This document shows positions 1,735 through 31,278 of a stretch of DNA of 32,000 bases, piece by piece; within the stretch, counting starts at the first letter, position 1, and each line of letters starts with the position of its first letter. Location of the stretch: NCBI GenBank assembly GCA_019058275.1, contig JAHLVW010000094.1, positions 71,980-103,979 on the forward strand. Direction: 5' to 3'. Under the pieces are notes generated by a model. That model was not told the DNA's origin and searched no databases. It worked only from the letters and a program-made list of their open reading frames with translations. A program made the position numbers and the translations under genes. This DNA comes from Candidatus Heimdallarchaeota archaeon. GTDB taxonomy: Archaea; Asgardarchaeota; Heimdallarchaeia; JABLTI01.

Positions 1735-1813
1735 TGGAGCCGTTGGAGGGATTTGAACCCTCGTTCTACTGATTACGAAGCAGGTGCCTTAGACCAAGCT
1801 TGGCCACAACGGC
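1735..1813 (-). tRNA. tRNA, most likely Thr (anticodon CGU), with genomically encoded CCA
   Basis: The reverse complement is GCCGTTGTGGCCAAGCTTGGTCTAAGGCACCTGCTTCGTAATCAGTAGAACGAGGGTTCAAATCCCTCCAACGGCTCCA. It has a 7-bp acceptor stem (GCCGTTG/CAACGGC), a T arm GAGGG-TTCAAAT-CCCTC, and the D-arm positions U8, A14, G18G19 and A21. In standard register the anticodon loop is TTCGTAA (U33, CGT, A37). The discriminator is U73. The anticodon stem is irregular (see findings). Confidence 0.75.
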
Positions 1814-4315: not shown

Positions 4316-5092
4316 ATGATATACTCTTCTAGTGTGGGAATAATGAATTCAGATATGGAATCATGCATTAAGATAGTAAAAGAGCTAAAACGTAAAGGTG
4401 CAATTAATGCTTATGTTCTTACAGGAGCAGGAATTTCGAGAGCTTCTAATATTCCTACATTTCGAGGAGAAGATGGTCTATGGGAAAAGTACAATTTTGA
4501 AGAAGTTGCTACAATTGATGCATGGTTGAAAAATCCAACTAAGATATGGACTTTCTATGCTGAGGGTATTGATATTATTCTGAATGCTGAACCCAATCCA
4601 GCACATAAATCCATTACTCAATTACAAGAACATGGATTCTGCAAATACATAATCACTCAAAATGTTGATAACCTTCATCAAAAAGCTGGATCAAAGGATG
4701 TTCTTGAGATACATGGAAATATAACACGTGTTCGTTGTATGGAGTGCAATGAGAAGCAAGTTTATACAGAACCCCTAAAAGAAATTCCTCCAATGTGTAA
4801 GTGTGGAGGTATGCTGAGACTAGATGTCGTTCTATTTAATGAACAACTACCATACGAATTGATAAATAAGGCATTTGATATTGCAAAAAAAGCTGATTTA
4901 GTATTTATAGTTGGTACAAGCGCTGAAGTTGTACCAGCAGCTACATTACCATATATCTCTAAGAAAAATGGAGCAAAAATTATAATATTTAACAAAGAAA
5001 AAACTGAACATGTTCAAATTGCTGATTGCTTCATAACCGGAAAATGCGAGGAAAGTCTTCCGAAATTTCTGAATATGTTGCTGAATCATTAA
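4316..5092 (+). CDS. Sir2-family NAD-dependent protein deacylase
   Basis: Motifs GAGISRASNIPTFRG, QNVDNLH and HG, a zinc module CMEC...CKCGG, and GTSAEV. The start may be an internal ATG (MNSDME). Confidence 0.85.
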   Translation: MIYSSSVGIMNSDMESCIKIVKELKRKGAINAYVLTGAGISRASNIPTFRGEDGLWEKYNFEEVATIDAWLKNPTKIWTFYAEGIDIILNAEPNPAHKSITQLQEHGFCKYIITQNVDNLHQKAGSKDVLEIHGNITRVRCMECNEKQVYTEPLKEIPPMCKCGGMLRLDVVLFNEQLPYELINKAFDIAKKADLVFIVGTSAEVVPAATLPYISKKNGAKIIIFNKEKTEHVQIADCFITGKCEESLPKFLNMLLNH

Positions 5093-5194
5093 ATTCTAAT
5101 TAAAACAATAAAAAAGTAAATTAATTGCTTATCATCGGAATATTTACATTAACAAATGAAATCAAAGTCTATTTGATGATTTGGAGCTAGGAGA

Positions 5195-6454
5195 ATGAAA
5201 ATTTACTTAACAATTTCGCTAATAGGACCTTTCATTCTAGATGATGATGGAAATATCATTAATACTAGAGACTTTAAATTAGATCCGAAACTCGTAGCAA
5301 AGAAGCTATCTGCTATTGATTCAGGAAAGGGTCCCAAAGAATTGGATGAAATCCTCAAAGAACACAAAAAAGACGATATTGTTGTTACAGACTCAAAACT
5401 TAATCGAATCCTTTCATCTCAAGGATTTAAAGTAATTAGCGAATTCCAGAATCCTATTATTAGAAACTTCCACAAGGAGATAATTACTCATATACAAAAT
5501 ATGGGTATCTTCAAAACCGAGAAAGATTATCTGAAGTTCCTCAGAGAAACATCCATAGCATTAACTCGAGAAAGAGTTAGAGCAGCAGCTGAAAAAAGAG
5601 ATCGATTGATTGTTCATGCTATAGAAACAATAGATGATACAGATAAAACAACTAATCTGTTTGCTAATAGGTTAAGGGAATTTTATGGTATGCATTTTCC
5701 GGAATTAGTTGATGCTATTGAAAATCACAATACTTTTGCTATCATTGTAAGCAAAACTGGAGATAAGATGAACATTGACAAAAAATTACTTGTAGATGAA
5801 ATCAAACTTCCAGATAAAAAAGCAGAAACACTTTTGGCATCACGCGAAACTTCAATGGGTTCTGATTTACTCGAACAAGATATGATAATAATTAAAGAAC
5901 AAGCAAAAACACTTGTTAATCTATTCAAGCGTCGACAAGCACTTGAAAAATGGATGGAGGAAGCTATGACAACAGTAGCACCAAATATTTGTGGAGTTGT
6001 TAGCCCACTTTTAGGTGCTAGGTTAATTTCACTAGCAGGTTCTCTGAAAGGTTTAGCTTTATGTGCATCAAGTAAAATACAAATTTTGGGTGCGGAGAAG
6101 GCTCTCTATAGAACAATTAAAACAGGTGCACCTCCTCCAAAACATGGTATTATTTATCAAGATCCAAGATTAAATCAAGCTAAGTGGTGGCTTAGAGGAA
6201 AAATTGCTCGAGTGCTATCTGGAAGACTTTCAATTGCAGCTCGTATGGATTATTTTGAAGCTGACGATAAATCTAAGGATTTAGCTAAGGAATTAAGTAA
6301 AAAAATAGAAGAAGTTAAGATCAAGTATCCCGATCCTCCTAGTAGACCACCTCGGAAACCAAAACCCATGAAAAGTTTTGCAAAAGGTGGTGCTACAAGA
6401 CCAAGACCTTCTGGTTCAAAGAAGAGCAAAGGCAGCTATAAGAAGAAGAGATGA
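5195..6454 (+). CDS. nop5: Nop5 (Nop56/58) C/D box sRNP core protein
   Basis: 419 aa. It has a coiled-coil middle region and a NOP domain (FPEL...APN...GA.LI..AGSL..LA..P.S.IQ.LGAEKALFR...HG.I.Q). The C-terminal tail is Lys/Arg-rich. AGGAG ribosome-binding site. The gene lies immediately upstream of fibrillarin. Confidence 0.9.
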   Translation: MKIYLTISLIGPFILDDDGNIINTRDFKLDPKLVAKKLSAIDSGKGPKELDEILKEHKKDDIVVTDSKLNRILSSQGFKVISEFQNPIIRNFHKEIITHIQNMGIFKTEKDYLKFLRETSIALTRERVRAAAEKRDRLIVHAIETIDDTDKTTNLFANRLREFYGMHFPELVDAIENHNTFAIIVSKTGDKMNIDKKLLVDEIKLPDKKAETLLASRETSMGSDLLEQDMIIIKEQAKTLVNLFKRRQALEKWMEEAMTTVAPNICGVVSPLLGARLISLAGSLKGLALCASSKIQILGAEKALYRTIKTGAPPPKHGIIYQDPRLNQAKWWLRGKIARVLSGRLSIAARMDYFEADDKSKDLAKELSKKIEEVKIKYPDPPSRPPRKPKPMKSFAKGGATRPRPSGSKKSKGSYKKKR

Positions 6455-6476
6455 ATTATAGAAGGTGAATTGACAA

Positions 6477-7163
6477 ATGGAAATTAAAAAATACAAATCT
6501 TTTGAAGGCATTTATCATGTAATCTTTCCAGAGGGAGTGCGAAAAATCGCAACATTGAATTTTACCCCCGGTCATCGAGTTTATGGTGAAGATTTAATTC
6601 CATTGGGTAAGCAAGAATATCGCTTATGGGACCCAACAAGATCAAAGCTCGCAGCTGCCATTGTTAAAGGTTTAAAGAAAGTACCAATAATTCCAGGTAG
6701 CTATGTTCTATATTTGGGTGCTGCTTCTGGAACAACTCCAAGTCATGTCTCTGATATCATTGGTTTAAAGGGATTTGAATATTGTATTGAATTCTCGCCT
6801 AGATCAATTAGAGATTTAGTCTTTCTATGTGAAAAACGTCAAAATATGTCGCCGATTTTAGAAGATGCAAGATATCCCAAGAACTATGAATATTTGGTTA
6901 ATCCAGTAGATGTAGTATATTGTGATATTGCACAGCCAGATCAAGCGAAAATTATGGCTGATAATGCAAATGCCTTTCTAAAGAAAGGGGGGTATATCTT
7001 ACTAGCAATTAAAGCAAGAAGCATAAGTTCGACTAAAAATCCATCAATTATTTACAAGCAACAAATGGAAATACTAGAAGATGAGGGTTTTGAAATCATA
7101 GAAGCTATAGACTTACATCCTCTAGAAAAAGACCATGCTATGATTTTAGGAAAGAAAAATTAA
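6477..7163 (+). CDS. flpA: Fibrillarin-like rRNA/tRNA 2'-O-methyltransferase
   Basis: Motifs YRLWDP.RSKLAAAI, VLYLGAASGTTPSHVSDI and D.AQPDQA. AGGTGA ribosome-binding site. Conserved operon partner of nop5. Confidence 0.95.
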   Translation: MEIKKYKSFEGIYHVIFPEGVRKIATLNFTPGHRVYGEDLIPLGKQEYRLWDPTRSKLAAAIVKGLKKVPIIPGSYVLYLGAASGTTPSHVSDIIGLKGFEYCIEFSPRSIRDLVFLCEKRQNMSPILEDARYPKNYEYLVNPVDVVYCDIAQPDQAKIMADNANAFLKKGGYILLAIKARSISSTKNPSIIYKQQMEILEDEGFEIIEAIDLHPLEKDHAMILGKKN

Positions 7164-7265
7164 GCTAGATTTTCACAAACAAAAGATTATATAAACTTGA
7201 AAGTAAATCAATAAGTATAAACTTTGAATAAAATCGCTGGATATGCATTATAGGAGTTTGCCAGA

Positions 7266-8135
7266 TTGAAACTTAGAAGAACCAGAATTAAAAAAATGTT
7301 CAAAGATAAAAATGCTGTTTCTCAAATTCTGGCTGCTATAATGATGATCTTTCTATTTACAGCTGCGATAGGTGTTGTATGGGGCTATCTCTATCCTACT
7401 TACAGACGATTTCAAACAACAAATGCAATAAACAGTGTTACATTATATATGCTGAATATTGATGAATCGATTTATGATATATATGGAAAAGGAGAAGGAA
7501 CAACAAAAACCATAAGAGTCGATCCTAGTTATGGAACTTTCTTTTATGAGGAAGGAAAAAATGTTAGTTTACAGTATAGTAATACTGCAGGAACATTTAC
7601 TGGGTCATATGTTTTCTCTAAATTGGGTGCGTTTTCATATTCACTTGAAAATAGAAGGGGAGTAATCCTTGACGTAGGACAACATCGATATCTTAAAGGA
7701 CCTAAAGTCCAAAATACTTTCTTCATAAATGGATCAGACGATGGTTTAACTTACCAGGGCTTAACAAATCTCACCTTATCACGCACAGATGAAAAAGCAA
7801 TGAAAATAGAGCTTGAATACCGAGCAAGAGTTTACTATTGGTTTGATCAAACAAATAACGTATTATCTGTAATCATTAATTTAGTACAAATAGACATTAA
7901 TGGAGTAGAATTCAGTTTTCATGATTATAATGAATTGGTATTAGCTTATAATACTACAAGAACAGTTTATTCAACTAGTGCTAATATTGATGACGATTTC
8001 TTTATAGATGGCTCAATAGCTTCAGTTGGCTTTAACCCTTCAGAACCAGCTTTAACATTTATTAAACCTCTAGCTGTTGCTAATTATGATGTAAATATAG
8101 ATGTTGTAGTTTCACAAATTCTATTTTATTATTGA
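7266..8135 (+). CDS. Archaeal type IV pilin-like protein (class III signal peptide, DUF1628-like N-terminus)
   Basis: KDKNAVSQILAAIMMIFLFTAAIGVVWGY matches the archaeal prepilin N-terminal pattern (basic stretch, AVS, long hydrophobic helix). The track start is TTG; the ATG at 7296 (MFKDKNAVS...) is more likely. Confidence 0.55.
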   Translation: MKLRRTRIKKMFKDKNAVSQILAAIMMIFLFTAAIGVVWGYLYPTYRRFQTTNAINSVTLYMLNIDESIYDIYGKGEGTTKTIRVDPSYGTFFYEEGKNVSLQYSNTAGTFTGSYVFSKLGAFSYSLENRRGVILDVGQHRYLKGPKVQNTFFINGSDDGLTYQGLTNLTLSRTDEKAMKIELEYRARVYYWFDQTNNVLSVIINLVQIDINGVEFSFHDYNELVLAYNTTRTVYSTSANIDDDFFIDGSIASVGFNPSEPALTFIKPLAVANYDVNIDVVVSQILFYY

Positions 8136-10535: not shown

Positions 10536-10865
10536 TTAACACCAAGCTATAACTTTCTCATACTTGTCCATTATCAAAGAAATAGTCTCATCATAGTCTA
10601 ATTGTTTTATATCAGGATGAACATTATCTCCATAAATACCTCTGGCTTCAAGATCTTCTTTAATTGCATAAACAGTTATACCAAATTTTGCAGCATCTGC
10701 AATAATGTTCTTTCCTCCTTTCCAACAAGCAAGAGTACTGTCTTGAATAAGAAGAACACCAACATCGTTTCCATGTTCTTTTTGAGTCTTTGTTATGTCA
10801 AGAAGGGTACCTTGTGCTGCGCAAGTATAGATACTTTTTGAAGTTATAAATAGAATTTTAGTCAT
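10536..10865 (-). CDS. dsrH: DsrH/TusB-like sulfur relay protein
   Basis: The LLIQDS..., VYAIKEDLEARG and ...VIAW patterns parallel E. coli TusB. It is the last gene of an E-F-H operon. Confidence 0.7.
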   Translation of the reverse strand: MTKILFITSKSIYTCAAQGTLLDITKTQKEHGNDVGVLLIQDSTLACWKGGKNIIADAAKFGITVYAIKEDLEARGIYGDNVHPDIKQLDYDETISLIMDKYEKVIAWC

Positions 10866-10877
10866 TTCTTGTACCTC

Positions 10878-11237
10878 CTAAAGTGCAATGGTTGCATCAG
10901 CTTGCAAGAGCAATTCACTAAATTCATCAAGAGAAATGATTTTCACTTCTAACTTTGGGTCTAAATCTTCAGGTTTTACTCCTCTTTGTTTTAAGGAGTT
11001 TTCAAAAGCAAATATTGGAATATCATATCTATGCATAGCTTCTAGTGCTCCCATAACAGAATGATGCCCAATGCCATCAGGATTCTGATCCTTAATTAAA
11101 TTAAAGACACCATCATCAATGAAAATGGCATCAGTTTCTACATCTAACACTAATAATCCTTGAGCAACACGAATGCCTTCAAGGCTGTTAATTTGCCCAT
11201 ATGGACCTTTACGGAAAATAACAATTACTTTTTCCAT
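10878..11237 (-). CDS. dsrF: DsrF/TusC-like sulfur relay protein
   Basis: The start is refined to ATG 11237 (MEKVIVIFRKGPYG...) with AAGGAG upstream; the longer track ORF would overlap dsrE. The IFIDDGVFNL pattern is typical of TusC. Confidence 0.7.
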   Translation of the reverse strand: MEKVIVIFRKGPYGQINSLEGIRVAQGLLVLDVETDAIFIDDGVFNLIKDQNPDGIGHHSVMGALEAMHRYDIPIFAFENSLKQRGVKPEDLDPKLEVKIISLDEFSELLLQADATIAL

Positions 11238-11250
11238 TTTTCGTTTCTCC

Positions 11251-11616
11251 TTATGCTGAAAAGATGAGTATACGATCTGCCTCTTCGACAAACTCACTTA
11301 ATGCTCCAAGCCCATCGAATCCAGTTCCTTCTAATAATATGTCCTTACTTTGTGTTCCACGATATTCTGCACAAATAGGACAAGAAACAACTGTAACACC
11401 TTTATCAACTAATTCTTTGAATAGCCCGGCGATATTTCTATCACGGTCATCAGATGGTTTGATGGTGTTAACATTGTTATATACCCCATCTGTATACAGG
11501 TAAATCCCAGTTACTTCATGACCAGTTTTAAGAGCTGCATTAGCTAACTTCAGTACAGTATCAGAATTCTGAAAACTGTATGGGGATGTCATTAATAAAA
11601 ATGCTATTTTACCCAT
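11251..11616 (-). CDS. dsrE: DsrE/TusD-like sulfurtransferase
   Basis: MGKIAFLLMTSPY..., YLYTDGVYN, the conserved Cys in SCPICAEYRG, and GLGALSEF. The ATG at 11616 has GGTGA 5 nt upstream. Confidence 0.75.
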   Translation of the reverse strand: MGKIAFLLMTSPYSFQNSDTVLKLANAALKTGHEVTGIYLYTDGVYNNVNTIKPSDDRDRNIAGLFKELVDKGVTVVSCPICAEYRGTQSKDILLEGTGFDGLGALSEFVEEADRILIFSA

Positions 11617-11781
11617 TTTAGTCACCATATTTTCCTATCAAAAAGAGCTAGGTAGTTAAAGTATAAGTTATACGGTTTAAAAAATAAACCACTAATTTTT
11701 CCTTAGAAAATAAATGCTCAACTTTATTTAAATGTCAAAGAAGAAGAATATAGCTAAGCTTAAATTAAAGCCCTTAGGATT

Positions 11782-12210
11782 TTGATTAAAATGGCTGAAA
11801 CAAAAAGAATGGCTATTGTTGTACATTCTGGTACATTAGATTTAGCCTATCCACCATTAATGCTTGCTGCTGCAGCGGGTGCATCTGATATGGAAGTTGA
11901 TATGTTCTTCACATTTTGGGGATTAAATCTCTTAAAAAAGAAAGGATTAAAAAGAGCAAAACTTTCTGGTGCATGGCGACTTGGTACAGGCATGATGAAA
12001 TTGATGATTAAAAGAACAGGAATGGCTTCTCTACCTGAATTGCTAGAAGCTGTTATTGATACTGGTAAAGTAAGACTCTATGCTTGTACTGCTACAATGG
12101 ATATTATGATGGTTAAAAAAGAACAATTGATACCAGAAGTAACAGGTTTCATGGGAGCAGCTGGATTTTTAGATATTGCTGCAGATTGTGATATACAATT
12201 ATTCATTTAA
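11782..12210 (+). CDS. DsrE2-like protein (DsrE/F-like family, COG2210-type)
   Basis: MAIVVHSGTLDLAYPPLMLAAAAGA...FFTFWGL...LYACTATMD. The ATG at 11791 is more likely than the TTG at 11782. It is divergent from dsrEFH and upstream of tusA. Confidence 0.6.
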   Translation: MIKMAETKRMAIVVHSGTLDLAYPPLMLAAAAGASDMEVDMFFTFWGLNLLKKKGLKRAKLSGAWRLGTGMMKLMIKRTGMASLPELLEAVIDTGKVRLYACTATMDIMMVKKEQLIPEVTGFMGAAGFLDIAADCDIQLFI

Positions 12211-12222
12211 GGTGAAAGCAAA

Positions 12223-12465
12223 ATGTCTGATATGCCCACTCCAGACAAAACACTTGATGCTCGTGGATTCCAATGTCCTATGCCAATTTTAAAGGCTAAG
12301 AAAACCATCCAAAGTATGAAAACAGGACAAATTCTTGAAGTTCTTTCTGAAGATCCTGGATCAAAAGAAGATTTTCCACGATGGGCAAAACGTACAGGTA
12401 ATGAATTACTAGGTATTTTTGATGAAGAAGATTATACTCGTTATTTCATAAAGAAGACAGTATAA
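12223..12465 (+). CDS. tusA: TusA/SirA-family sulfur carrier
   Basis: LDARGFQCPMPILKAKK carries the CPxP active-site motif. 80 aa. AGGTGA ribosome-binding site. Confidence 0.8.
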   Translation: MSDMPTPDKTLDARGFQCPMPILKAKKTIQSMKTGQILEVLSEDPGSKEDFPRWAKRTGNELLGIFDEEDYTRYFIKKTV

Positions 12466-12561
12466 ACATCTTCTATACCGTTTTTTCTATTTTTTAAGGT
12501 TAAAAATAAGTGGAATTTGAGCTTTAATCAAACACTCATTTATACCAAAAAAACGGTAAAC

Positions 12562-12569
12562 TTTAAAAA
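12562..12569 (+). promoter_or_regulatory. TATA-box-like element upstream of the 5S rRNA locus
   Basis: TTTAAAAA lies about 25-30 nt upstream of the start of the processing helix (12590-12596), which is appropriate spacing for an archaeal TATA to transcription start site. Confidence 0.4.
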
Positions 12570-12595
12570 GTGAAGATTACTCGAAAGACTACGCA

Positions 12596-12744
12596 GAAAC
12601 TCATCGCCGGAAGTTAAGCCTTCATACGTTATGTTAATTACTGATCTGAGCGATCGTTCGGGAACAACATAAAGCTGCGTCTCGACGCGGTCAAAGCTGG
12701 AGGGTAACACCCGGACTCGTCCGATCCCGGAAACGATGAGTTTC
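12596..12744 (+). rRNA. 5S rRNA encoded in circularly permuted order, including the leader/trailer processing helix
   Basis: 12613-12681 is the 3' two-thirds of a 5S rRNA (GTTAAGCC loop C half, helix V, helix IV hairpin, GGGAA, 3' strand of helix I). 12682-12683 is a TC linker. 12684-12732 is the 5' third (GACGCGGTCAAAGCTGGAGGGTAACACCCGGACTCGTCCGATCCCGGAA). The flanks GAAACTCATCG (12596-12606) and CGATGAGTTTC (12734-12744) are perfectly complementary. The helices are detailed in findings. Confidence 0.7.
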
Positions 12745-12809
12745 GTGCTATCAGACTTTCATTATCTCTTTAACTATTAGAAAATAAAATTTGGATGAGA
12801 TTGTCTTAG

Positions 12810-13163
12810 TTAAGACTCATCCTCAACATCAAAAGCAATTTTGCCAGCTTCTTTAGTAAATAATGAAAAATCTATTGTATGTTTGCCTAGTTCTAATTTT
12901 CCACTCACTTTAAAAGTAAAAGTGTCCCCCTTGGTCAATTTAAAGGGATTCTCTTCTGATATACTATCCAAATTTATCTCTTTTTCATTGACAATAACTT
13001 TGATTTTACTAGCATCAAATTCCTTTTCATCAATTTTCAAAGGATCTAAACCAATAATTGTTGCAGGATAAATGGTGTTCAATAATTGAAATGAGATTTC
13101 TTCTCCCTCTTGTTTTAAGCTTCCTTTTAGATAGAGTTTCTTCAACATAAATTTTGGAATCAT
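12810..13163 (-). CDS. Hypothetical protein, 117 aa
   Basis: Clean ORF with coding-like composition and predicted beta-rich sequence. No recognisable motifs. Confidence 0.4.
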   Translation of the reverse strand: MIPKFMLKKLYLKGSLKQEGEEISFQLLNTIYPATIIGLDPLKIDEKEFDASKIKVIVNEKEINLDSISEENPFKLTKGDTFTFKVSGKLELGKHTIDFSLFTKEAGKIAFDVEDES

Positions 13164-29703: not shown

Positions 29704-31278
29704 ATGTCCGTGATTAATTGGCAAAATGATCCACTACTTTTCGATTTAGAACCTCAACCAGTTAATCAATGGGTAAATGCCAATGAGTTAATACAGCAAA
29801 ATCGGAGTGAAGAAATTTTTCTTTCAGATGGGTATCTGAACCTTTATCCTATTATGGTTCGGAAAAACGATTTTGTGAGACAGAAGGTTTCGGACCGGAT
29901 CATGGCTCGGTTTCCGTTCCTAGTCATAGACAAAGAAATACAAGAGCAAATAGTAAATAAAATCCTTCTGATCTCTGAAGTTACTCGAGACTATTTCTAC
30001 AAGTCAATCAATAAATCGATCTTGCAATGGAAACAAGACATTCTGAAATATTTAGGACGAGGAATTCTTCCATATCCAATTGTAAGATGTTGTTTCGAAT
30101 TAGTGCCAAATTTACACACTTTAATTAATGAAACCTCTCTTCGATTTACCAGTGCTCGAGGTGAAGGATTCAAGATGCCTAGAAAACTCACCAAAGAGTT
30201 AGCCTACCTAGCTGGAATGGTCAATGGCGACGGCAATCTCCAAAAGTATACTTTGCGAATCGTTGATTACTCGATTAAGAATATCAAGCAATTACAAGTA
30301 ATGTTCCAAGAATACTTTGATCAAACAGGAAACATTCTCTACAAAACACCAAACAGTCCGGAAGTGGTGATAACAAATCTCTGGGTCGTAAGACTTTTCT
30401 CATTCTTGACAGAACAACCTATAGGCATTAGGAAATATGATCATTTAGGAGAACCATTAGTTTTCAAACAGGAACCTTTTCGAACATATTACTGGTCTGG
30501 GGTTATGGATGCAGATGGGAGTTATAAGAAATCAAAAGTAACATTTGTTAGTGCTTCTTTACATTTTGCAAAAGATTTCAGAAATTTTCTTATAAACAAT
30601 AATATTGATTCAAAACTAACAGAGAGAGAGGATAACACAATCACTATATATATTCCTGTTAGATTTCATTCACTGCTAACTAAAGTATTAACTTGTTTAC
30701 ATCCAGAAAAGAAACTTGAATTTATACAATTAGATTCCGTTCCCTATCGAACAGTAGCGTTTTTTGCGGGATTCAAAGATTCAGCACTTGTCAATGATTA
30801 TTTTAATTTCAAATTAATGAACAATTTGAGTGTTGCTAATTTAGGGCAAACAATCCGCCAATTTAGGGGAGAACAACCTAGAAGAATTTTCGTTAAGAAT
30901 TTAGATATAAGTGAACGTGCTTTACAGGATATCGAAAAAGGGATAATGAGTATCAATATTTTACTTTTAGATGAAATCTTACAACATCAAAAGATATCCT
31001 TAATGCCTTTTCTTACACAACATGAAAATATTCGATACCATATTCGAGGTTCAAAACATGTTAAACTTGACACACGACCAAATGAGACTTTAACTTCTCT
31101 TCTGAAACCTCTTAAGTTTTACAAACACAGAACAAATATTCCTCTTTCTAATAATGTCCTTACACAAGAATTAGAAGATCATTTTCAAATCAAAATAACT
31201 AACAATAAAATAACGACTAAATTACTTCTACAATTCTTTTCAATATTCTGTAAAACACAATTAACGGAAAATCAGTAA
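29704..31278 (+). CDS. Free-standing double-motif LAGLIDADG protein with a C-terminal XRE-type HTH and an N-terminal region of about 165 aa with unknown function
   Basis: LAYLAGMVNGDG (30199-30234) and YWSGVMDADG (30490-30519) lie about 97 aa apart, and both keep the acidic residue. IRQFRGEQPRRIFVKNLDISERALQDIEKGIMSINILLLDEIL (about 30844-30978) looks like a Cro/C1 HTH. It is not embedded in an intron or intein host gene. Confidence 0.7.
   Translation: MSVINWQNDPLLFDLEPQPVNQWVNANELIQQNRSEEIFLSDGYLNLYPIMVRKNDFVRQKVSDRIMARFPFLVIDKEIQEQIVNKILLISEVTRDYFYKSINKSILQWKQDILKYLGRGILPYPIVRCCFELVPNLHTLINETSLRFTSARGEGFKMPRKLTKELAYLAGMVNGDGNLQKYTLRIVDYSIKNIKQLQVMFQEYFDQTGNILYKTPNSPEVVITNLWVVRLFSFLTEQPIGIRKYDHLGEPLVFKQEPFRTYYWSGVMDADGSYKKSKVTFVSASLHFAKDFRNFLINNNIDSKLTEREDNTITIYIPVRFHSLLTKVLTCLHPEKKLEFIQLDSVPYRTVAFFAGFKDSALVNDYFNFKLMNNLSVANLGQTIRQFRGEQPRRIFVKNLDISERALQDIEKGIMSINILLLDEILQHQKISLMPFLTQHENIRYHIRGSKHVKLDTRPNETLTSLLKPLKFYKHRTNIPLSNNVLTQELEDHFQIKITNNKITTKLLLQFFSIFCKTQLTENQ

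What the first reader, a model, noticed from the sequence alone, without database searches (positions are those of the whole stretch)
12590..12750. Circularly permuted 5S rRNA gene with a bulge-helix-type leader/trailer processing stem
A GC-rich block of about 150 nt sits in an AT-rich spacer. Read 5'->3', positions 12613-12681 match the 3' two-thirds of an archaeal 5S rRNA. That part contains the loop C half GTTAAGCC. It contains helix V (TTATGTT 12629-12635 with AACATAA 12666-12672) and the helix IV hairpin GATC-TGAGC-GATC (12643-12655). It also contains the conserved GGGAA (12660-12664) and the helix I 3' strand GCTGCGTC (12674-12681). After a 2-nt linker (TC, 12682-12683) comes 12684-12732, which matches the 5' third. 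That part contains the helix I 5' strand GACGCGGT, which pairs over 8 bp with 12674-12681. It contains helix II (TGGAGG 12698-12703 with CCTTCA 12619-12624). It also contains helix III (CCGG 12711-12714 with CCGG 12727-12730) and the loop C 5' half ACTCGTCCGATC. Every canonical helix is therefore formed between the two blocks, but the gene order is 3'-part then 5'-part, with the break in loop C. Both new termini carry the same hexamer CCGGAA (12607-12612 and 12727-12732). The flanks GAAACTCATCG (12596-12606) and CGATGAGTTTC (12734-12744) form a perfect 11-bp helix. Next to that helix is a 4-bp CCGG/CCGG helix with AAA (12731-12733) bulged out. This is the geometry recognised by the archaeal splicing endonuclease, although the second bulge (AAG 12611-12613) is not cleanly closed by a further helix. 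Cleavage in the bulges followed by ligation would give ...GATCCCGGAAGTTAAGCC..., exactly the canonical loop C, in a circle of about 120 nt (49 + 69 nt plus the linker). Alternatively, the RNA could stay linear with its termini in loop C and helix I capped by CUCG. Neither flank contains the missing halves in normal order. Permuted tRNA genes, SRP RNA and 23S rRNA are known in a few lineages, and permuted 5S rRNA is known in some mitochondria. I am not aware of a genomically permuted archaeal 5S gene.
Basis: partly seen in the sequence, partly recalled or inferred. Interest (0 to 1): 0.85.

Follow-up and report, generated by a model that had tools for sequence, protein, structure and literature searches.

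The report
Circularly permuted 5S rRNA gene, Heimdallarchaeia
In this Asgard archaeon (Heimdallarchaeia, the archaeal class usually placed closest to eukaryotes) the universal 5S ribosomal RNA gene is written back to front, and its flanks form the archaeal RNA-splicing signal that would cut it out and join its ends into a 120-nt circle with the normal 5S sequence, which also explains why 5S genes go undetected in these genomes.

Summary
Window 12613-12732 (+) is a complete 5S rRNA in the order 3' two-thirds, 4-nt cap, 5' third.

- **Matched model test.** A covariance model built from 20 genuine 5S genes rotated at the same point hits exactly 12613-12732, full length (35.5 bits, E 2.5e-9). The same genes in normal order give at most 5.8 bits on the element. 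Rfam RF00001 gives 18.3 bits against a cut-off of 38.
- **Conservation.** The same element occurs in 12 other Asgard species genomes (Gerd-type and other Heimdallarchaeota, one labelled Hodarchaeota). None has a standard 5S hit in the DNA held. Across the 13 sequences, 98.8% of pair cells form and 24 of 45 pairs carry compensatory changes.
- **Processing signal.** All 13 have a 7-11 bp outer stem, a 4-bp helix and two invariant 3-nt bulges (AAG, AAA). By the established cleavage rule, this bulge-helix-bulge (BHB) geometry releases G12613..A12732 (120 nt). Ligation would give the canonical ...CCGGAA-GUUAAGCC... junction.
- **Not shown.** Expression, circularity and the final form in the ribosome are inferred, not demonstrated.
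The break lies at the AA bulge of helix III, not in loop C.

No published report was found, and a 2022 paper states that 5S genes could not be predicted in complete Heimdallarchaeum genomes.

The parts
12550..12569 (+). Putative archaeal promoter: conserved AAAACGG(T/C)AAA followed by the TATA-like CTTTAAAAA (12561-69). It lies about 50 nt upstream of the mature 5' nucleotide and about 27-35 nt upstream of the outer stem.
   Evidence: AACTTTAAA sits at -53 to -49 from the core start in 11 of 13 orthologous loci. Promoter function is inferred from position and conservation only.
12596..12606 (+). Leader strand of the outer processing stem (h): GAAACUCAUCG. It can extend to 12593-95 (GCA with UGC 12746-48) across a 1-nt bulge.
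   Evidence: Perfect 11-bp pairing with 12734-44. Nine of the 11 pairs show compensatory changes across 13 species, and 98.6% of cells are paired.
12607..12610 (+). Leader copy of CCGG. It forms the 5' strand of the 4-bp central helix (H) of the BHB-like motif and pairs with 12727-30. After cleavage it is discarded with the leader.
   Evidence: All 4 pairs form in all 13 sequences. The leader copy is CUGG in 5 of them, giving a G-U wobble. In L004 the pairing with the 3' copy is 4 of 4, whereas the alternative pairing with the helix III 5' strand has a C-A mismatch.
12611..12613 (+). 5' bulge AAG. Predicted EndA cleavage falls between A12612 and G12613.
   Evidence: Invariant in 13 of 13 sequences. 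G12613 is the first nucleotide of the full-length R1 hit. No continuous inner helix closes this bulge. GUUA 12613-16 pairs with UAAC 12705-08 across a three-way junction.
12613..12732 (+). The permuted 5S rRNA itself (120 nt). 12613-12680 holds the 3' part: outer helix III pair, loop B, helix II 3' strand, helix V, loop E, helix IV, loop D and helix I 3' strand. 12681-84 is the CUCG cap. 12685-12732 holds the 5' part: helix I 5' strand, loop A, helix II 5' strand, helix III and loop C.
   Evidence: R1 gives 35.5 bits, E 2.5e-9, model positions 1-121 of 121. It is the only R1 hit in the 32-kb window. The rotated sequence is 86 of 119 identical, collinearly, to a canonical archaeal 5S.
12619..12624 (+). 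Helix II 3' strand, CCUUCA. It pairs with UGGAGG at 12698-12703.
   Evidence: Six pairs, 100% of cells paired, 4 pairs with compensatory changes.
12629..12672 (+). Gamma domain. Helix V is UUAUGUU 12629-35 with AACAUAA 12666-72. The loop E region includes GGGAA at 12660-64. Helix IV spans 12641-49 with 12654-61, capped by GCGA at 12650-53.
   Evidence: Helix V has 7 pairs, 5 of them compensatory. Helix IV has 7 pairs, 3 compensatory. This region aligns to the RF00001 consensus at high posterior probability.
12674..12691 (+). Helix I closed into a hairpin: GCUGCGU 12674-80, cap CUCG 12681-84, ACGCGGU 12685-91. In an ordinary 5S gene the 5' and 3' ends lie here.
   Evidence: Seven pairs, 3 compensatory (L019 GCAC/GUGC, L023 GAGC/GCUC). 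The caps are 4-5 nt: CUCG, UGCG, UUCG, CGCG, UGUG, AAUG, AAUUA.
12711..12730 (+). Helix III (CCGG 12711-14 with CCGG 12727-30) enclosing an intact loop C (ACUCGUCCGAUC 12715-26). In the precursor, 12727-30 can pair with the leader CCGG instead.
   Evidence: Aligned to helix III and loop C of both models. L004 carries a compensatory G-C to A-U change. Precursor energies: MFE -55.9, BHB conformer -54.1, native helix III conformer -51.0 kcal/mol.
12731..12733 (+). 3' bulge AAA. Predicted EndA cleavage falls between A12732 and A12733. A12731-32 are the conserved AA bulge of helix III in the mature RNA.
   Evidence: Invariant in 13 of 13 sequences. A12732 is the last nucleotide of the full-length R1 hit. 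The bulge is flanked by an 11-bp and a 4-bp helix, which is a clean hBH half-site.
12734..12744 (+). Trailer strand of the outer processing stem: CGAUGAGUUUC.
   Evidence: Pairs with 12596-606. The pairing covaries across species.
12757..12772 (+). Short T-runs downstream (CTTTC, CTCTTT) that may act as an archaeal oligo-T terminator. They are weak in this genome. Longer T-runs (T6-T8) follow the stem in L010, L016, L018, L023 and L004.
   Evidence: Sequence inspection only. This is an inference.

Best explanation
This is the functional 5S rRNA gene of a Gerd-type Heimdallarchaeon, encoded in circularly permuted order.

**Proposed pathway**
- It is transcribed from its own promoter as a precursor of about 160 nt.
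- Leader and trailer pair into an 11-bp stem.
- The leader copy of CCGG pairs with the 3' strand of helix III to give a 4-bp helix, flanked by two 3-nt bulges on opposite strands. This is a relaxed bulge-helix-bulge (BHB) motif.
- The archaeal splicing endonuclease EndA cuts after the second nucleotide of each bulge (12612|12613 and 12732|12733) and releases a 120-nt RNA.
- The RNA ligase RtcB joins A12732 to G12613. This recreates the canonical ...CCGGAA-GUUAAGCC... sequence, and native helix III then forms.
- The product is a covalently closed 5S rRNA whose helix I is capped by a tetraloop.
- I think it most likely stays circular in the ribosome.

**Shown here**
- The sequence is a 5S rRNA in permuted order.
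- It is conserved and covaries across 13 species.
- The BHB-like geometry is conserved.
- The predicted cleavage product matches the model hit to the nucleotide.

**Inferred**
- Transcription.
- The enzymes involved.
- Ligation.
- The final topology.

**Likely origin**
A tandem 5S-5S duplication that lost its outer halves. The leader CCGGAA would be the remnant of the upstream copy.
For: 1. **Identity and order.**
   - R1 (permuted model built from genuine 5S genes) gives a full-length hit at 12613-12732 of 35.5-35.6 bits, E 4.7e-7 to 2.5e-9.
   - R1 also gives 32.5-53.5 bits in all 12 Asgard loci and nothing else in 106 kb.
   - R2 (same genes, normal order) gives at most 5.8 bits on the element.
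   - RF00001 gives 18.3 bits, with only the 3' part aligned.
   - The rotated sequence is 72% identical, collinearly, to a canonical archaeal 5S.
2. **Selection.**
   - Across 13 species, 98.8% of 585 pair cells are standard pairs, against 34-47% when partners are slid.
   - 24 of 45 pairs carry compensatory changes, and 0 of 500 shuffles reach the observed values.
   - The flanking genes are only 51-90% identical at the protein level in the same syntenic locus.
3. **Processing signal.**
   - The outer stem covaries at 9 of 11 pairs.
   - H is 4 of 4 paired in all 13 sequences.
   - The discarded nucleotides A12611, A12612 and A12733 are invariant.
   - The BHB conformer lies only 1.8 kcal/mol above the MFE.
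   - The predicted cleavage product equals the R1 hit ends exactly.
4. **Enzymes and precedents.**
   - Asgard archaea, including a Heimdall genome, encode the (alpha-beta)2 EndA with the L1 loop that confers relaxed-BHB specificity (PMC5829648).
5. **No competing gene seen.**
   - There is no RF00001 hit at gathering in the window or in the 12 loci.
6. **Own promoter.** A conserved TATA-like box sits at about -50.
7. **Cap.** It is 4-5 nt, and 10 of the 13 caps are Y-N-C-G (CUCG, UGCG, UUCG, CGCG). This looks like a structural tetraloop rather than a spacer to be removed.
Against: - No RNA data were available. Transcription, cleavage, ligation and circularity are all untested.
- The motif is not a strict hBHBh'. 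The 5' bulge is not closed by a continuous inner helix; a 19-nt strand (12708-26) interrupts it.
- The MFE fold pairs the leader CCGG with 12711-14 rather than with 12727-30. Because both partners are CCGG, covariation barely separates the two registers. Only L004 favours the BHB register.
- The rest of the 4.42-Mb genome (16 contigs) could not be scanned for a collinear 5S.
- The published 'not predicted' statement concerns a different Heimdall family, not this MAG.
- The covariance models come from one bacterial group, and their E-values are rough.
Confidence: 0.78

Rival explanations
1. The gene and the BHB excision and ligation are the same, but the circle is only an intermediate. It is reopened in or next to the helix I cap (12681-84), giving an ordinary linear 5S rRNA with the usual ends. 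Permuted tRNA genes and circular pre-16S/23S rRNAs behave this way.
For: Permuted tRNAs and pre-rRNAs are re-linearised after circularisation (established knowledge; PMC4267664; PMC12918454). Cutting the cap would recreate canonical helix I termini.
Against: The cap is only 4-5 nt and is mostly a Y-N-C-G tetraloop, with no spacer or second processing motif. 5S rRNA has no known need for free ends. Circular SRP RNA (established knowledge) and circular 23S rRNA (PMC12918454) function as circles. No nuclease signal is evident.
Confidence: 0.13
2. The mature RNA is a linear permuted 5S, with ends at helix III (near 12613 and 12732) and helix I capped. It would be cut by EndA or other nucleases but never ligated, like the permuted mitochondrial 5S of brown algae, whose product is also permuted.
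For: Brown-algal mitochondrial 5S is permuted in the final product (PMC4267664). A nick at the AA bulge would leave every helix intact.
Against: EndA products (5'-OH and 2',3'-cyclic phosphate) are the natural RtcB substrates, and excised archaeal BHB RNAs are generally circularised (established knowledge). The leader duplication CYGGAA is set so that ligation restores the canonical sequence with no base gained or lost. That precision would not be needed for a nicked product.
Confidence: 0.07
3. It is a rearranged, non-functional 5S relic, or a 5S-derived RNA with another role, and the ribosomal 5S is encoded elsewhere in normal order.
For: Only 32 kb of a 4.42-Mb genome was examined. RF00001 does not reach its cut-off here.
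Against: Compensatory changes maintain every helix in 13 species, while neighbouring proteins diverge to 51-75% identity. The promoter and processing stem are conserved. No collinear 5S is seen in any of the 12 related loci or predicted in complete Heimdallarchaeum genomes. Other Asgard classes have readily detected 5S genes (PMC9723677), so the detection failure is specific to this lineage.
Confidence: 0.02

Closest known systems
Circularly permuted SRP RNA gene of Thermoproteus
   Same: An essential, universally conserved non-coding RNA is encoded with its 3' part before its 5' part. The termini of the precursor form a BHB motif. EndA cleavage and ligation give a circular RNA that restores the canonical sequence, and the circle is the functional form.
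   Different: The RNA is different (SRP RNA versus 5S rRNA) and so is the lineage (Thermoproteales versus Heimdallarchaeia). That case has RNA-seq and biochemical proof; this one has none.
Circularly permuted tRNA genes (Cyanidioschyzon merolae, Soma et al. 2007; Thermofilum pendens), cited in PMC4267664
   Same: The gene order is 3' half then 5' half. There is a BHB-like motif at the junction of leader and trailer, a circular intermediate, and a short direct repeat at the termini.
   Different: In tRNAs the circle must be reopened by RNase P and tRNase Z at the acceptor stem, and the intervening sequence is removed. Here the helix I cap is a 4-nt tetraloop with no evident reopening signal.
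Permuted mitochondrial 5S rRNA of brown algae and other stramenopiles (mtPerm-5S; Valach et al. 2014, PMC4267664)
   Same: It is a 5S rRNA whose helix I is a closed hairpin and whose ends lie elsewhere. It is missed by the standard model and found by a dedicated permuted covariance model.
   Different: It is organellar. The ends lie at the junction of the alpha and gamma domains (loop A), not in helix III. The product stays permuted and linear, and there is no BHB stem or ligation. No match to that family appeared in the Rfam scan of the region, where RF00001 was the only 5S-clan hit kept.
Archaeal pre-16S/23S rRNA processing stems with BHB motifs, circular pre-rRNAs, and circular or permuted mature 23S (PMC7758197; PMC12918454)
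   Same: A long leader-trailer stem carries a BHB. EndA excision and circularisation of an rRNA follow. Circular rRNA can be retained in ribosomes.
   Different: Those genes are collinear, so circularisation joins the natural ends. Here circularisation is needed to create an internal canonical junction. 5S was explicitly stated not to follow this route.
Low-level circular 5S rRNA in Sulfolobus and Halobacterium (Danan et al. 2012, PMC3326292)
   Same: It is a covalently closed 5S rRNA of about 120 nt in archaea, showing that joined helix I ends are chemically and sterically possible.
   Different: Those circles come from collinear genes by joining the natural ends. They are minor species of unknown role and were not validated by RT-PCR.

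Membership tests
5S rRNA (Rfam RF00001) | Three-domain fold: helix I, loop A, helices II and III with loops B and C, and helices V and IV with loops E and D | tested here: met
   All helices form once the sequence is rotated. R1 aligns positions 1-121 of 121 at 35.5 bits. Pairs are kept in 98.8% of cells in 13 species.
5S rRNA (Rfam RF00001) | Conserved sequence signatures (CCGAxCxCGGAAGUUAAGC, loop E GGGAA, ACUG) | tested here: met
   Invariant columns in A1. These positions align to the consensus. The first signature is contiguous only after joining 12732 to 12613.
5S rRNA (Rfam RF00001) | Collinear gene scoring at or above the curated gathering score (38 bits) | tested here: not met
   18.3 bits, E 0.3. 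There is no hit at gathering in the window or in the 12 related loci. The cause is the gene order, not divergence (R1 versus R2).
5S rRNA (Rfam RF00001) | Presence in the large ribosomal subunit | not testable with these tools
   This needs ribosome purification or cryo-EM from a Heimdallarchaeon.
BHB-matured circularly permuted ncRNA genes (permuted tRNA, permuted SRP RNA) | The 3' part of the RNA is encoded upstream of the 5' part in one transcription unit | tested here: met
   One conserved promoter-like box lies upstream.
BHB-matured circularly permuted ncRNA genes (permuted tRNA, permuted SRP RNA) | Leader and trailer form a helix carrying two 3-nt bulges separated by a 4-bp helix, each bulge lying 3' of that helix on its strand | tested here: met
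   The arrangement 12596-606/12734-44 (h), 12607-10/12727-30 (H), AAG 12611-13 and AAA 12731-33 is present in 13 of 13 species.
BHB-matured circularly permuted ncRNA genes (permuted tRNA, permuted SRP RNA) | In-silico cleavage and ligation restore the canonical mature sequence exactly | tested here: met
   The product 12613-12732 equals the full-length R1 hit. The junction CCGGAA-GUUAAGCC equals the Rfam consensus uCggAAguUAAGc.
BHB-matured circularly permuted ncRNA genes (permuted tRNA, permuted SRP RNA) | Circular RNA with the predicted junction detected in cells | not testable with these tools
   No transcriptome access. The one metagenome scan for the junction 22-mer returned only collinear genes of another lineage.
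Strict archaeal hBHBh' splicing motif | An inner helix h' (at least 2 bp) continuous with H closes the second bulge | tested here: not met
   UUAA 12614-17 cannot pair with GAUC 12723-26. The only partner (UAAC 12705-08) lies across a three-way junction. The motif is therefore a relaxed hBH-plus-loop type. According to PMC5829648, Asgard-type (alpha-beta)2 EndA with the L1 loop is expected to accept such motifs.
mtPerm-5S (permuted mitochondrial 5S) | Termini at the junction of the alpha and gamma domains, and a linear permuted product | tested here: not met
   The termini here lie in the beta domain, at the AA bulge of helix III. RF00001 was the only 5S-clan match kept in the Rfam scan at E up to 10.

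The most novel reading that the evidence does not exclude
Ribosomes of Heimdallarchaeia contain a covalently circular 5S rRNA made from a permuted gene. The permutation would be a shared derived character of a large part of the class: Gerd-type order JABLTI01, Hodarchaeales, and possibly Heimdallarchaeaceae, where 5S genes are 'unpredictable'. If so, it is a rare genomic change that bears on where eukaryotes attach to the Asgard tree, because eukaryotes have a collinear 5S gene. It would be the first permuted cytoplasmic rRNA gene that must be circularised to be functional.
Probability: 0.4. Interest if true: 0.9.

Novelty: new variant of a known kind. Interest (0 to 1): 0.86.

Why it matters
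[quoted passage not shown] A permuted 5S gene in a cellular genome, as opposed to an organelle, was not found in any paper searched.
- **It explains a published puzzle.** 5S genes could not be predicted in complete Heimdallarchaeum genomes (PMC8813620). It also affects MAG quality standards that require a 5S gene.
- **It extends a known pathway to a ribosomal RNA.** BHB, EndA and RtcB 'repair' of permuted genes was known for tRNA and SRP RNA. Here it predicts a circular 5S rRNA in working ribosomes.
- **It gives a discrete phylogenetic character.** The lineage is the one usually placed closest to eukaryotes, so the permutation is a discrete, easily scored character for Asgard phylogeny.
- **It gives a practical fix.** A permuted covariance model finds the gene.

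Tried and rejected
1. **Rfam at gathering** on the window and on 12 related loci found no 5S. At E up to 10 there is only an 18.3-bit RF00001 hit, plus chance hits. One of these is Hammerhead_3 at 16 bits against a cut-off of 48.5, driven by the CGAAACUCAUC of the stem. These were rejected as chance.
2. **The permuted-order DNA pattern also returned 18 Clostridia/Eubacteriales loci.** Inspection and Rfam show ordinary tandem 5S-5S arrays with 4-18 nt spacers, not permuted genes. I used them as the source of genuine 5S genes for the matched models.
3. **A first idea was dropped.** Building the models from chimeras of copy 1 and copy 2 would break helix I and II covariation. Each gene was rotated on itself instead.
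4. **The metagenome scan used the ligated-junction 22-mer** (TCCGATCCCGGAAGTTAAGCCT). It was meant to find collinear Gerd-like 5S genes or assembled circular junctions.
   - All 18 hits are one unrelated low-GC hot-spring archaeal lineage with a normal 5S of 88-90 bits.
   - None is Heimdall-like.
There was also no positive control showing that Gerd-type DNA is present in that collection.
5. **The mechanical ORF at 12540-12710 (-), 56 aa,** overlaps the element. No gene is called there in the public annotation tables, so it was rejected as a gene.
6. **ARAGORN on L004, L023 and L014** found no tRNA.
7. **Literature searches** found no report of a permuted archaeal or nuclear 5S gene.
8. **The whole genome could not be scanned** for a collinear copy, because only the window and loci with flanks of at most 10 kb are accessible.
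Full report
**What is there**

The window comes from contig JAHLVY010000001.1 of GCA_019058195.1. The contig is 2,258,244 bp. That length identifies it as MAG hikurangi1519_12R2_mb2_bin1, a 4.42-Mb, 32.4% G+C 'Gerd'-group Heimdallarchaeon from Hikurangi margin sediment (supplement of PMC8813620). 'Gerdarchaeota' corresponds to GTDB order JABLTI01 in the class Heimdallarchaeia (PMC9723677).

Positions 12591-12780 form the only island above 50% G+C in the 32 kb. The island lies between a TusA gene (12223-12465, +) and a 117-aa gene on the minus strand (12810-13163). No gene is called in the gap. The minimum-free-energy fold of 12590-12750 gives the proposed architecture (-55.9 kcal/mol, z = -3.6).

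**Is it a 5S rRNA in permuted order?**

Rfam finds no 5S at its curated threshold. With relaxed thresholds RF00001 gives 18.3 bits (cut-off 38) at 12566-12683. Only the stretch from AAGUUAAGC to the end aligns convincingly; the 5' third is forced onto unrelated upstream sequence.

1. I took 20 distinct, genuine 5S genes (Rfam 81-88 bits) from Clostridial loci that my pattern search had returned.
2. I mapped the Rfam consensus structure onto them.
3. I built two matched covariance models. R2 holds the genes as they are. R1 holds each gene rotated at ...CGGAA|GUUAAGC... with a 4-nt linker.

Results:

| Model | Order | Result |
|---|---|---|
| R1 | rotated | Full-length hit (model 1-121 of 121) at exactly 12613-12732: 35.6 bits, E 4.7e-7 in 106 kb; 35.5 bits, E 2.5e-9 with filters off |
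| R1 | rotated | All 12 related Asgard loci hit at 32.5-53.5 bits; nothing else reported |
| R2 | normal | Nothing in the window at E up to 10 with default filters; with filters off, 5.8 bits (12561-12674) and 5.2 bits (helix III alone) on the element |

The rotated order therefore beats the native order by about 30 bits with identical training data. As a simpler check, the rotated sequence is 86 of 119 identical in one collinear alignment to a canonical archaeal 5S gene from a metagenome. The native order aligns only with many gaps.

**Anatomy**

- 12613-12680 carries the outer pair of helix III, loop B, the 3' strand of helix II, helix V, loop E, helix IV, loop D and the 3' strand of helix I.
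- 12681-84 (CUCG) caps a 7-bp helix I.
- 12685-12732 carries the 5' strand of helix I, loop A, the 5' strand of helix II, helix III and an intact loop C (12715-26).
It lies at the conserved AA bulge on the 3' side of helix III (Rfam consensus uCggAA|guUAAGc).

**Related sequences**

One scan of the 185,579 species genomes used a pattern that can only match the permuted order: GAAGWTAAGC, then GGGAA, then CCGAWCNCGGAA. It returned 30 loci.

- Eighteen are Clostridia/Eubacteriales with tandem 5S-5S genes separated by 4-18 nt. These are false positives.
- Twelve are Asgard archaea:
  - seven labelled Heimdallarchaeota;
  - two labelled 'Promethearchaeati', including JABLTI01, the reference genome of the Gerd order;
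  - one Hodarchaeota (L004);
  - one 'uncultured archaeon' (L023);
  - one labelled Bathyarchaeia (L021). L021 shares the Gerd synteny and is probably mislabelled.
- None of the 12 loci has an RF00001 hit at gathering.
- In 9-10 of them the element sits in the same place (DsrE, DsrE2, TusA, [5S], orf117/ZnuA). The neighbouring proteins are only 51-90% identical to those of the window. These are orthologous loci across substantial divergence.

**Covariation**

On the 13-sequence alignment A1, RNAalifold recovers the permuted 5S plus the outer stem. It predicts 49 pairs, 24 of them with compensatory changes.

I also counted pairs for an explicitly stated precursor structure of 45 pairs:

| Measure | Observed | Control |
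|---|---|---|
| Cells forming standard pairs (585 cells) | 98.8% | 34-47% when 3' partners are slid by 1-3 columns |
| Pairs with double-sided changes | 24 | 8.3 ± 2.1 in shuffles (0 of 500 reach 24) |

Per helix, the numbers of compensatory pairs are:

| Helix | Compensatory pairs |
|---|---|
| II | 4 of 6 |
| V | 5 of 7 |
| IV | 3 of 7 |
| I | 3 of 7 |
| Outer stem | 9 of 11 |

Examples of outer-stem variants are GAUCCUG/CAGGAUC in L023 and CAACGCCUG/CAGGCGUUG in L004. This rules out chance and a decaying pseudogene.

**The processing signal**

The layout of each strand is:

- Leader strand: outer helix 12596-606, then CCGG 12607-10, then AAG 12611-13.
- Trailer strand: CCGG 12727-30, then AAA 12731-33, then outer helix 12734-44.

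Each 3-nt bulge lies 3' of the 4-bp helix on its own strand. That is the orientation of the natural BHB substrate. This rests on established knowledge, reconstructed from the canonical tRNA intron, where nt 32 pairs with intron position -3 and both cuts fall between bulge nucleotides 2 and 3.

Applying that rule gives cuts at 12612|12613 and 12732|12733. The product is 120 nt with the same ends that R1 found independently. Ligation gives ...GAUCCCGGAA-GUUAAGCC..., the canonical sequence with no base missing or added.

Across all 13 species:

- H is 4 of 4 paired.
- Both bulges are invariant, including the discarded A12611, A12612 and A12733.
- The adjacent stem sequence drifts.
- The leader copy is CUGG in five species, which keeps the pairing by wobble.
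- In L004 the leader pairs 4 of 4 with the 3' strand but mismatches with the helix III 5' strand. This is slight evidence for the BHB register over the alternative register that the MFE prefers.
- The BHB conformer lies 1.8 kcal/mol above the MFE.

The motif is relaxed. No continuous inner helix closes the 5' bulge, and GUUA/UAAC lies across a three-way junction. According to PMC5829648, Asgard archaea including a Heimdall genome carry the (alpha-beta)2 EndA with the L1 loop, which is associated with cleavage of relaxed motifs. Circular 16S and 23S rRNAs are reported for Asgard archaea.

**Transcription unit**

A conserved AAAACGG(Y)AAACTTTAAA(A) box lies about 50 nt upstream of the mature 5' nucleotide in 11 of 13 loci. 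T-runs follow the stem. This suggests a stand-alone gene, but it is an inference.

**Fate of the circle**

The helix I cap is 4-5 nt. In 10 of the 13 sequences it is Y-N-C-G (CUCG, UGCG, UUCG, CGCG). That fits a retained structural tetraloop better than a spacer to be removed. Low-level circular 5S exists in other archaea, and circular 23S functions in ribosomes. I therefore favour a mature circular 5S. Reopening at the cap, or a nicked linear permuted form, remain open as the first two rivals.

**Is there a normal copy elsewhere?**

I could not scan the whole genome.

- Indirect evidence against a normal copy:
  - No collinear 5S appears in any held Asgard DNA.
  - Other Asgard classes, Sif- and Jordarchaeia, have ordinarily detected 5S genes.
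- The metagenome scan for the ligated-junction 22-mer returned only collinear genes of an unrelated hot-spring lineage.
  - No collinear Gerd-like gene was seen there.
  - That negative result lacks a positive control.

**Comparison and novelty**

The mechanism is that of permuted tRNA genes and, most closely, the permuted SRP RNA of Thermoproteus. The RNA and the lineage are new.

The only permuted 5S known, in brown-algal mitochondria, differs in three ways: the break point, a linear permuted product, and no BHB or ligation. Recent literature states that archaeal 5S, unlike 16S and 23S, is not processed via excision and circularisation.

Six literature searches found no report, and Rfam 15 has no family that detects the element. 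I rate it a new variant of a known kind, of high interest.

The main reservation is that expression and circularity are inferred from sequence alone.

Noticed in passing
window 29704-31278 (+): A 524-aa ORF with a LAGLIDADG_3 domain (PF14528, 34.8 bits; motif LAYLAGMVNGDGN). It contains the third-richest G+C patch of the window (30141-30240). It may be a homing endonuclease or an intein-derived protein.
   Followed up: partly
L021 (DATKZI010000026.1) 5000-7700: This 256-kb contig is labelled 'Candidatus Bathyarchaeia'. It carries the Gerd-type permuted 5S and the same DsrE, DsrE2, TusA, [5S], ZnuA synteny as the window. The taxonomic label or the binning is probably wrong.
   Followed up: partly
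window 10536-13163 and the matching parts of L008, L010, L011, L016, L018, L019, L020, L021, L031: The permuted 5S always sits just downstream of a DsrH/DsrE/DsrE/DsrE2/TusA sulfur-relay cluster. Upstream of it (in the gene's orientation it follows) lies a small HMG-CoA_red_N-like gene and/or a ZnuABC transporter. This synteny holds across species whose proteins are only 51-90% identical.
   Followed up: partly
L004 3294-3379 (+): In the Hodarchaeota locus an 86-nt tRNA-like sequence (Rfam 34.2 bits) lies about 75 nt upstream of the 5S processing stem. ARAGORN does not call it. It may be an intron-containing or otherwise disrupted tRNA.
   Followed up: no
L033-L050 (JGI and ENA metagenome contigs, mostly hot-spring): One low-G+C (30-38%) archaeal lineage has a stand-alone, collinear 5S gene (Rfam 88-90 bits) that shares the unusual UCCGAUCCCGGAAGUUAAGCCU stretch with the Gerd-type 5S. 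A tRNA lies next to it, and 114-nt tRNA hits (possibly intron-containing) occur nearby. The organism was not identified.
   Followed up: partly
L003, L005-L007, L009, L012, L013, L015, L017, L022, L024-L030, L032: Eighteen Clostridia/Eubacteriales species genomes carry two tandem 5S genes separated by only 4-18 nt. The two copies differ by compensatory changes in helix I. This is a natural example of the duplicated state from which a permuted gene could arise by loss of the outer halves.
   Followed up: partly
window 12793-12822: The inverted repeat GGATGAG...CTCATCC lies at the 3' end of the minus-strand gene 12810-13163. Together with the 5S outer stem it produces a spurious 16-bit Hammerhead_3 match. 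It may be a terminator hairpin shared by the two convergent units.
   Followed up: no
window 1735-1813 (-): tRNA-Thr (CGU), 57.8 bits. It is the only RNA gene in the window that standard tools detect.
   Followed up: yes
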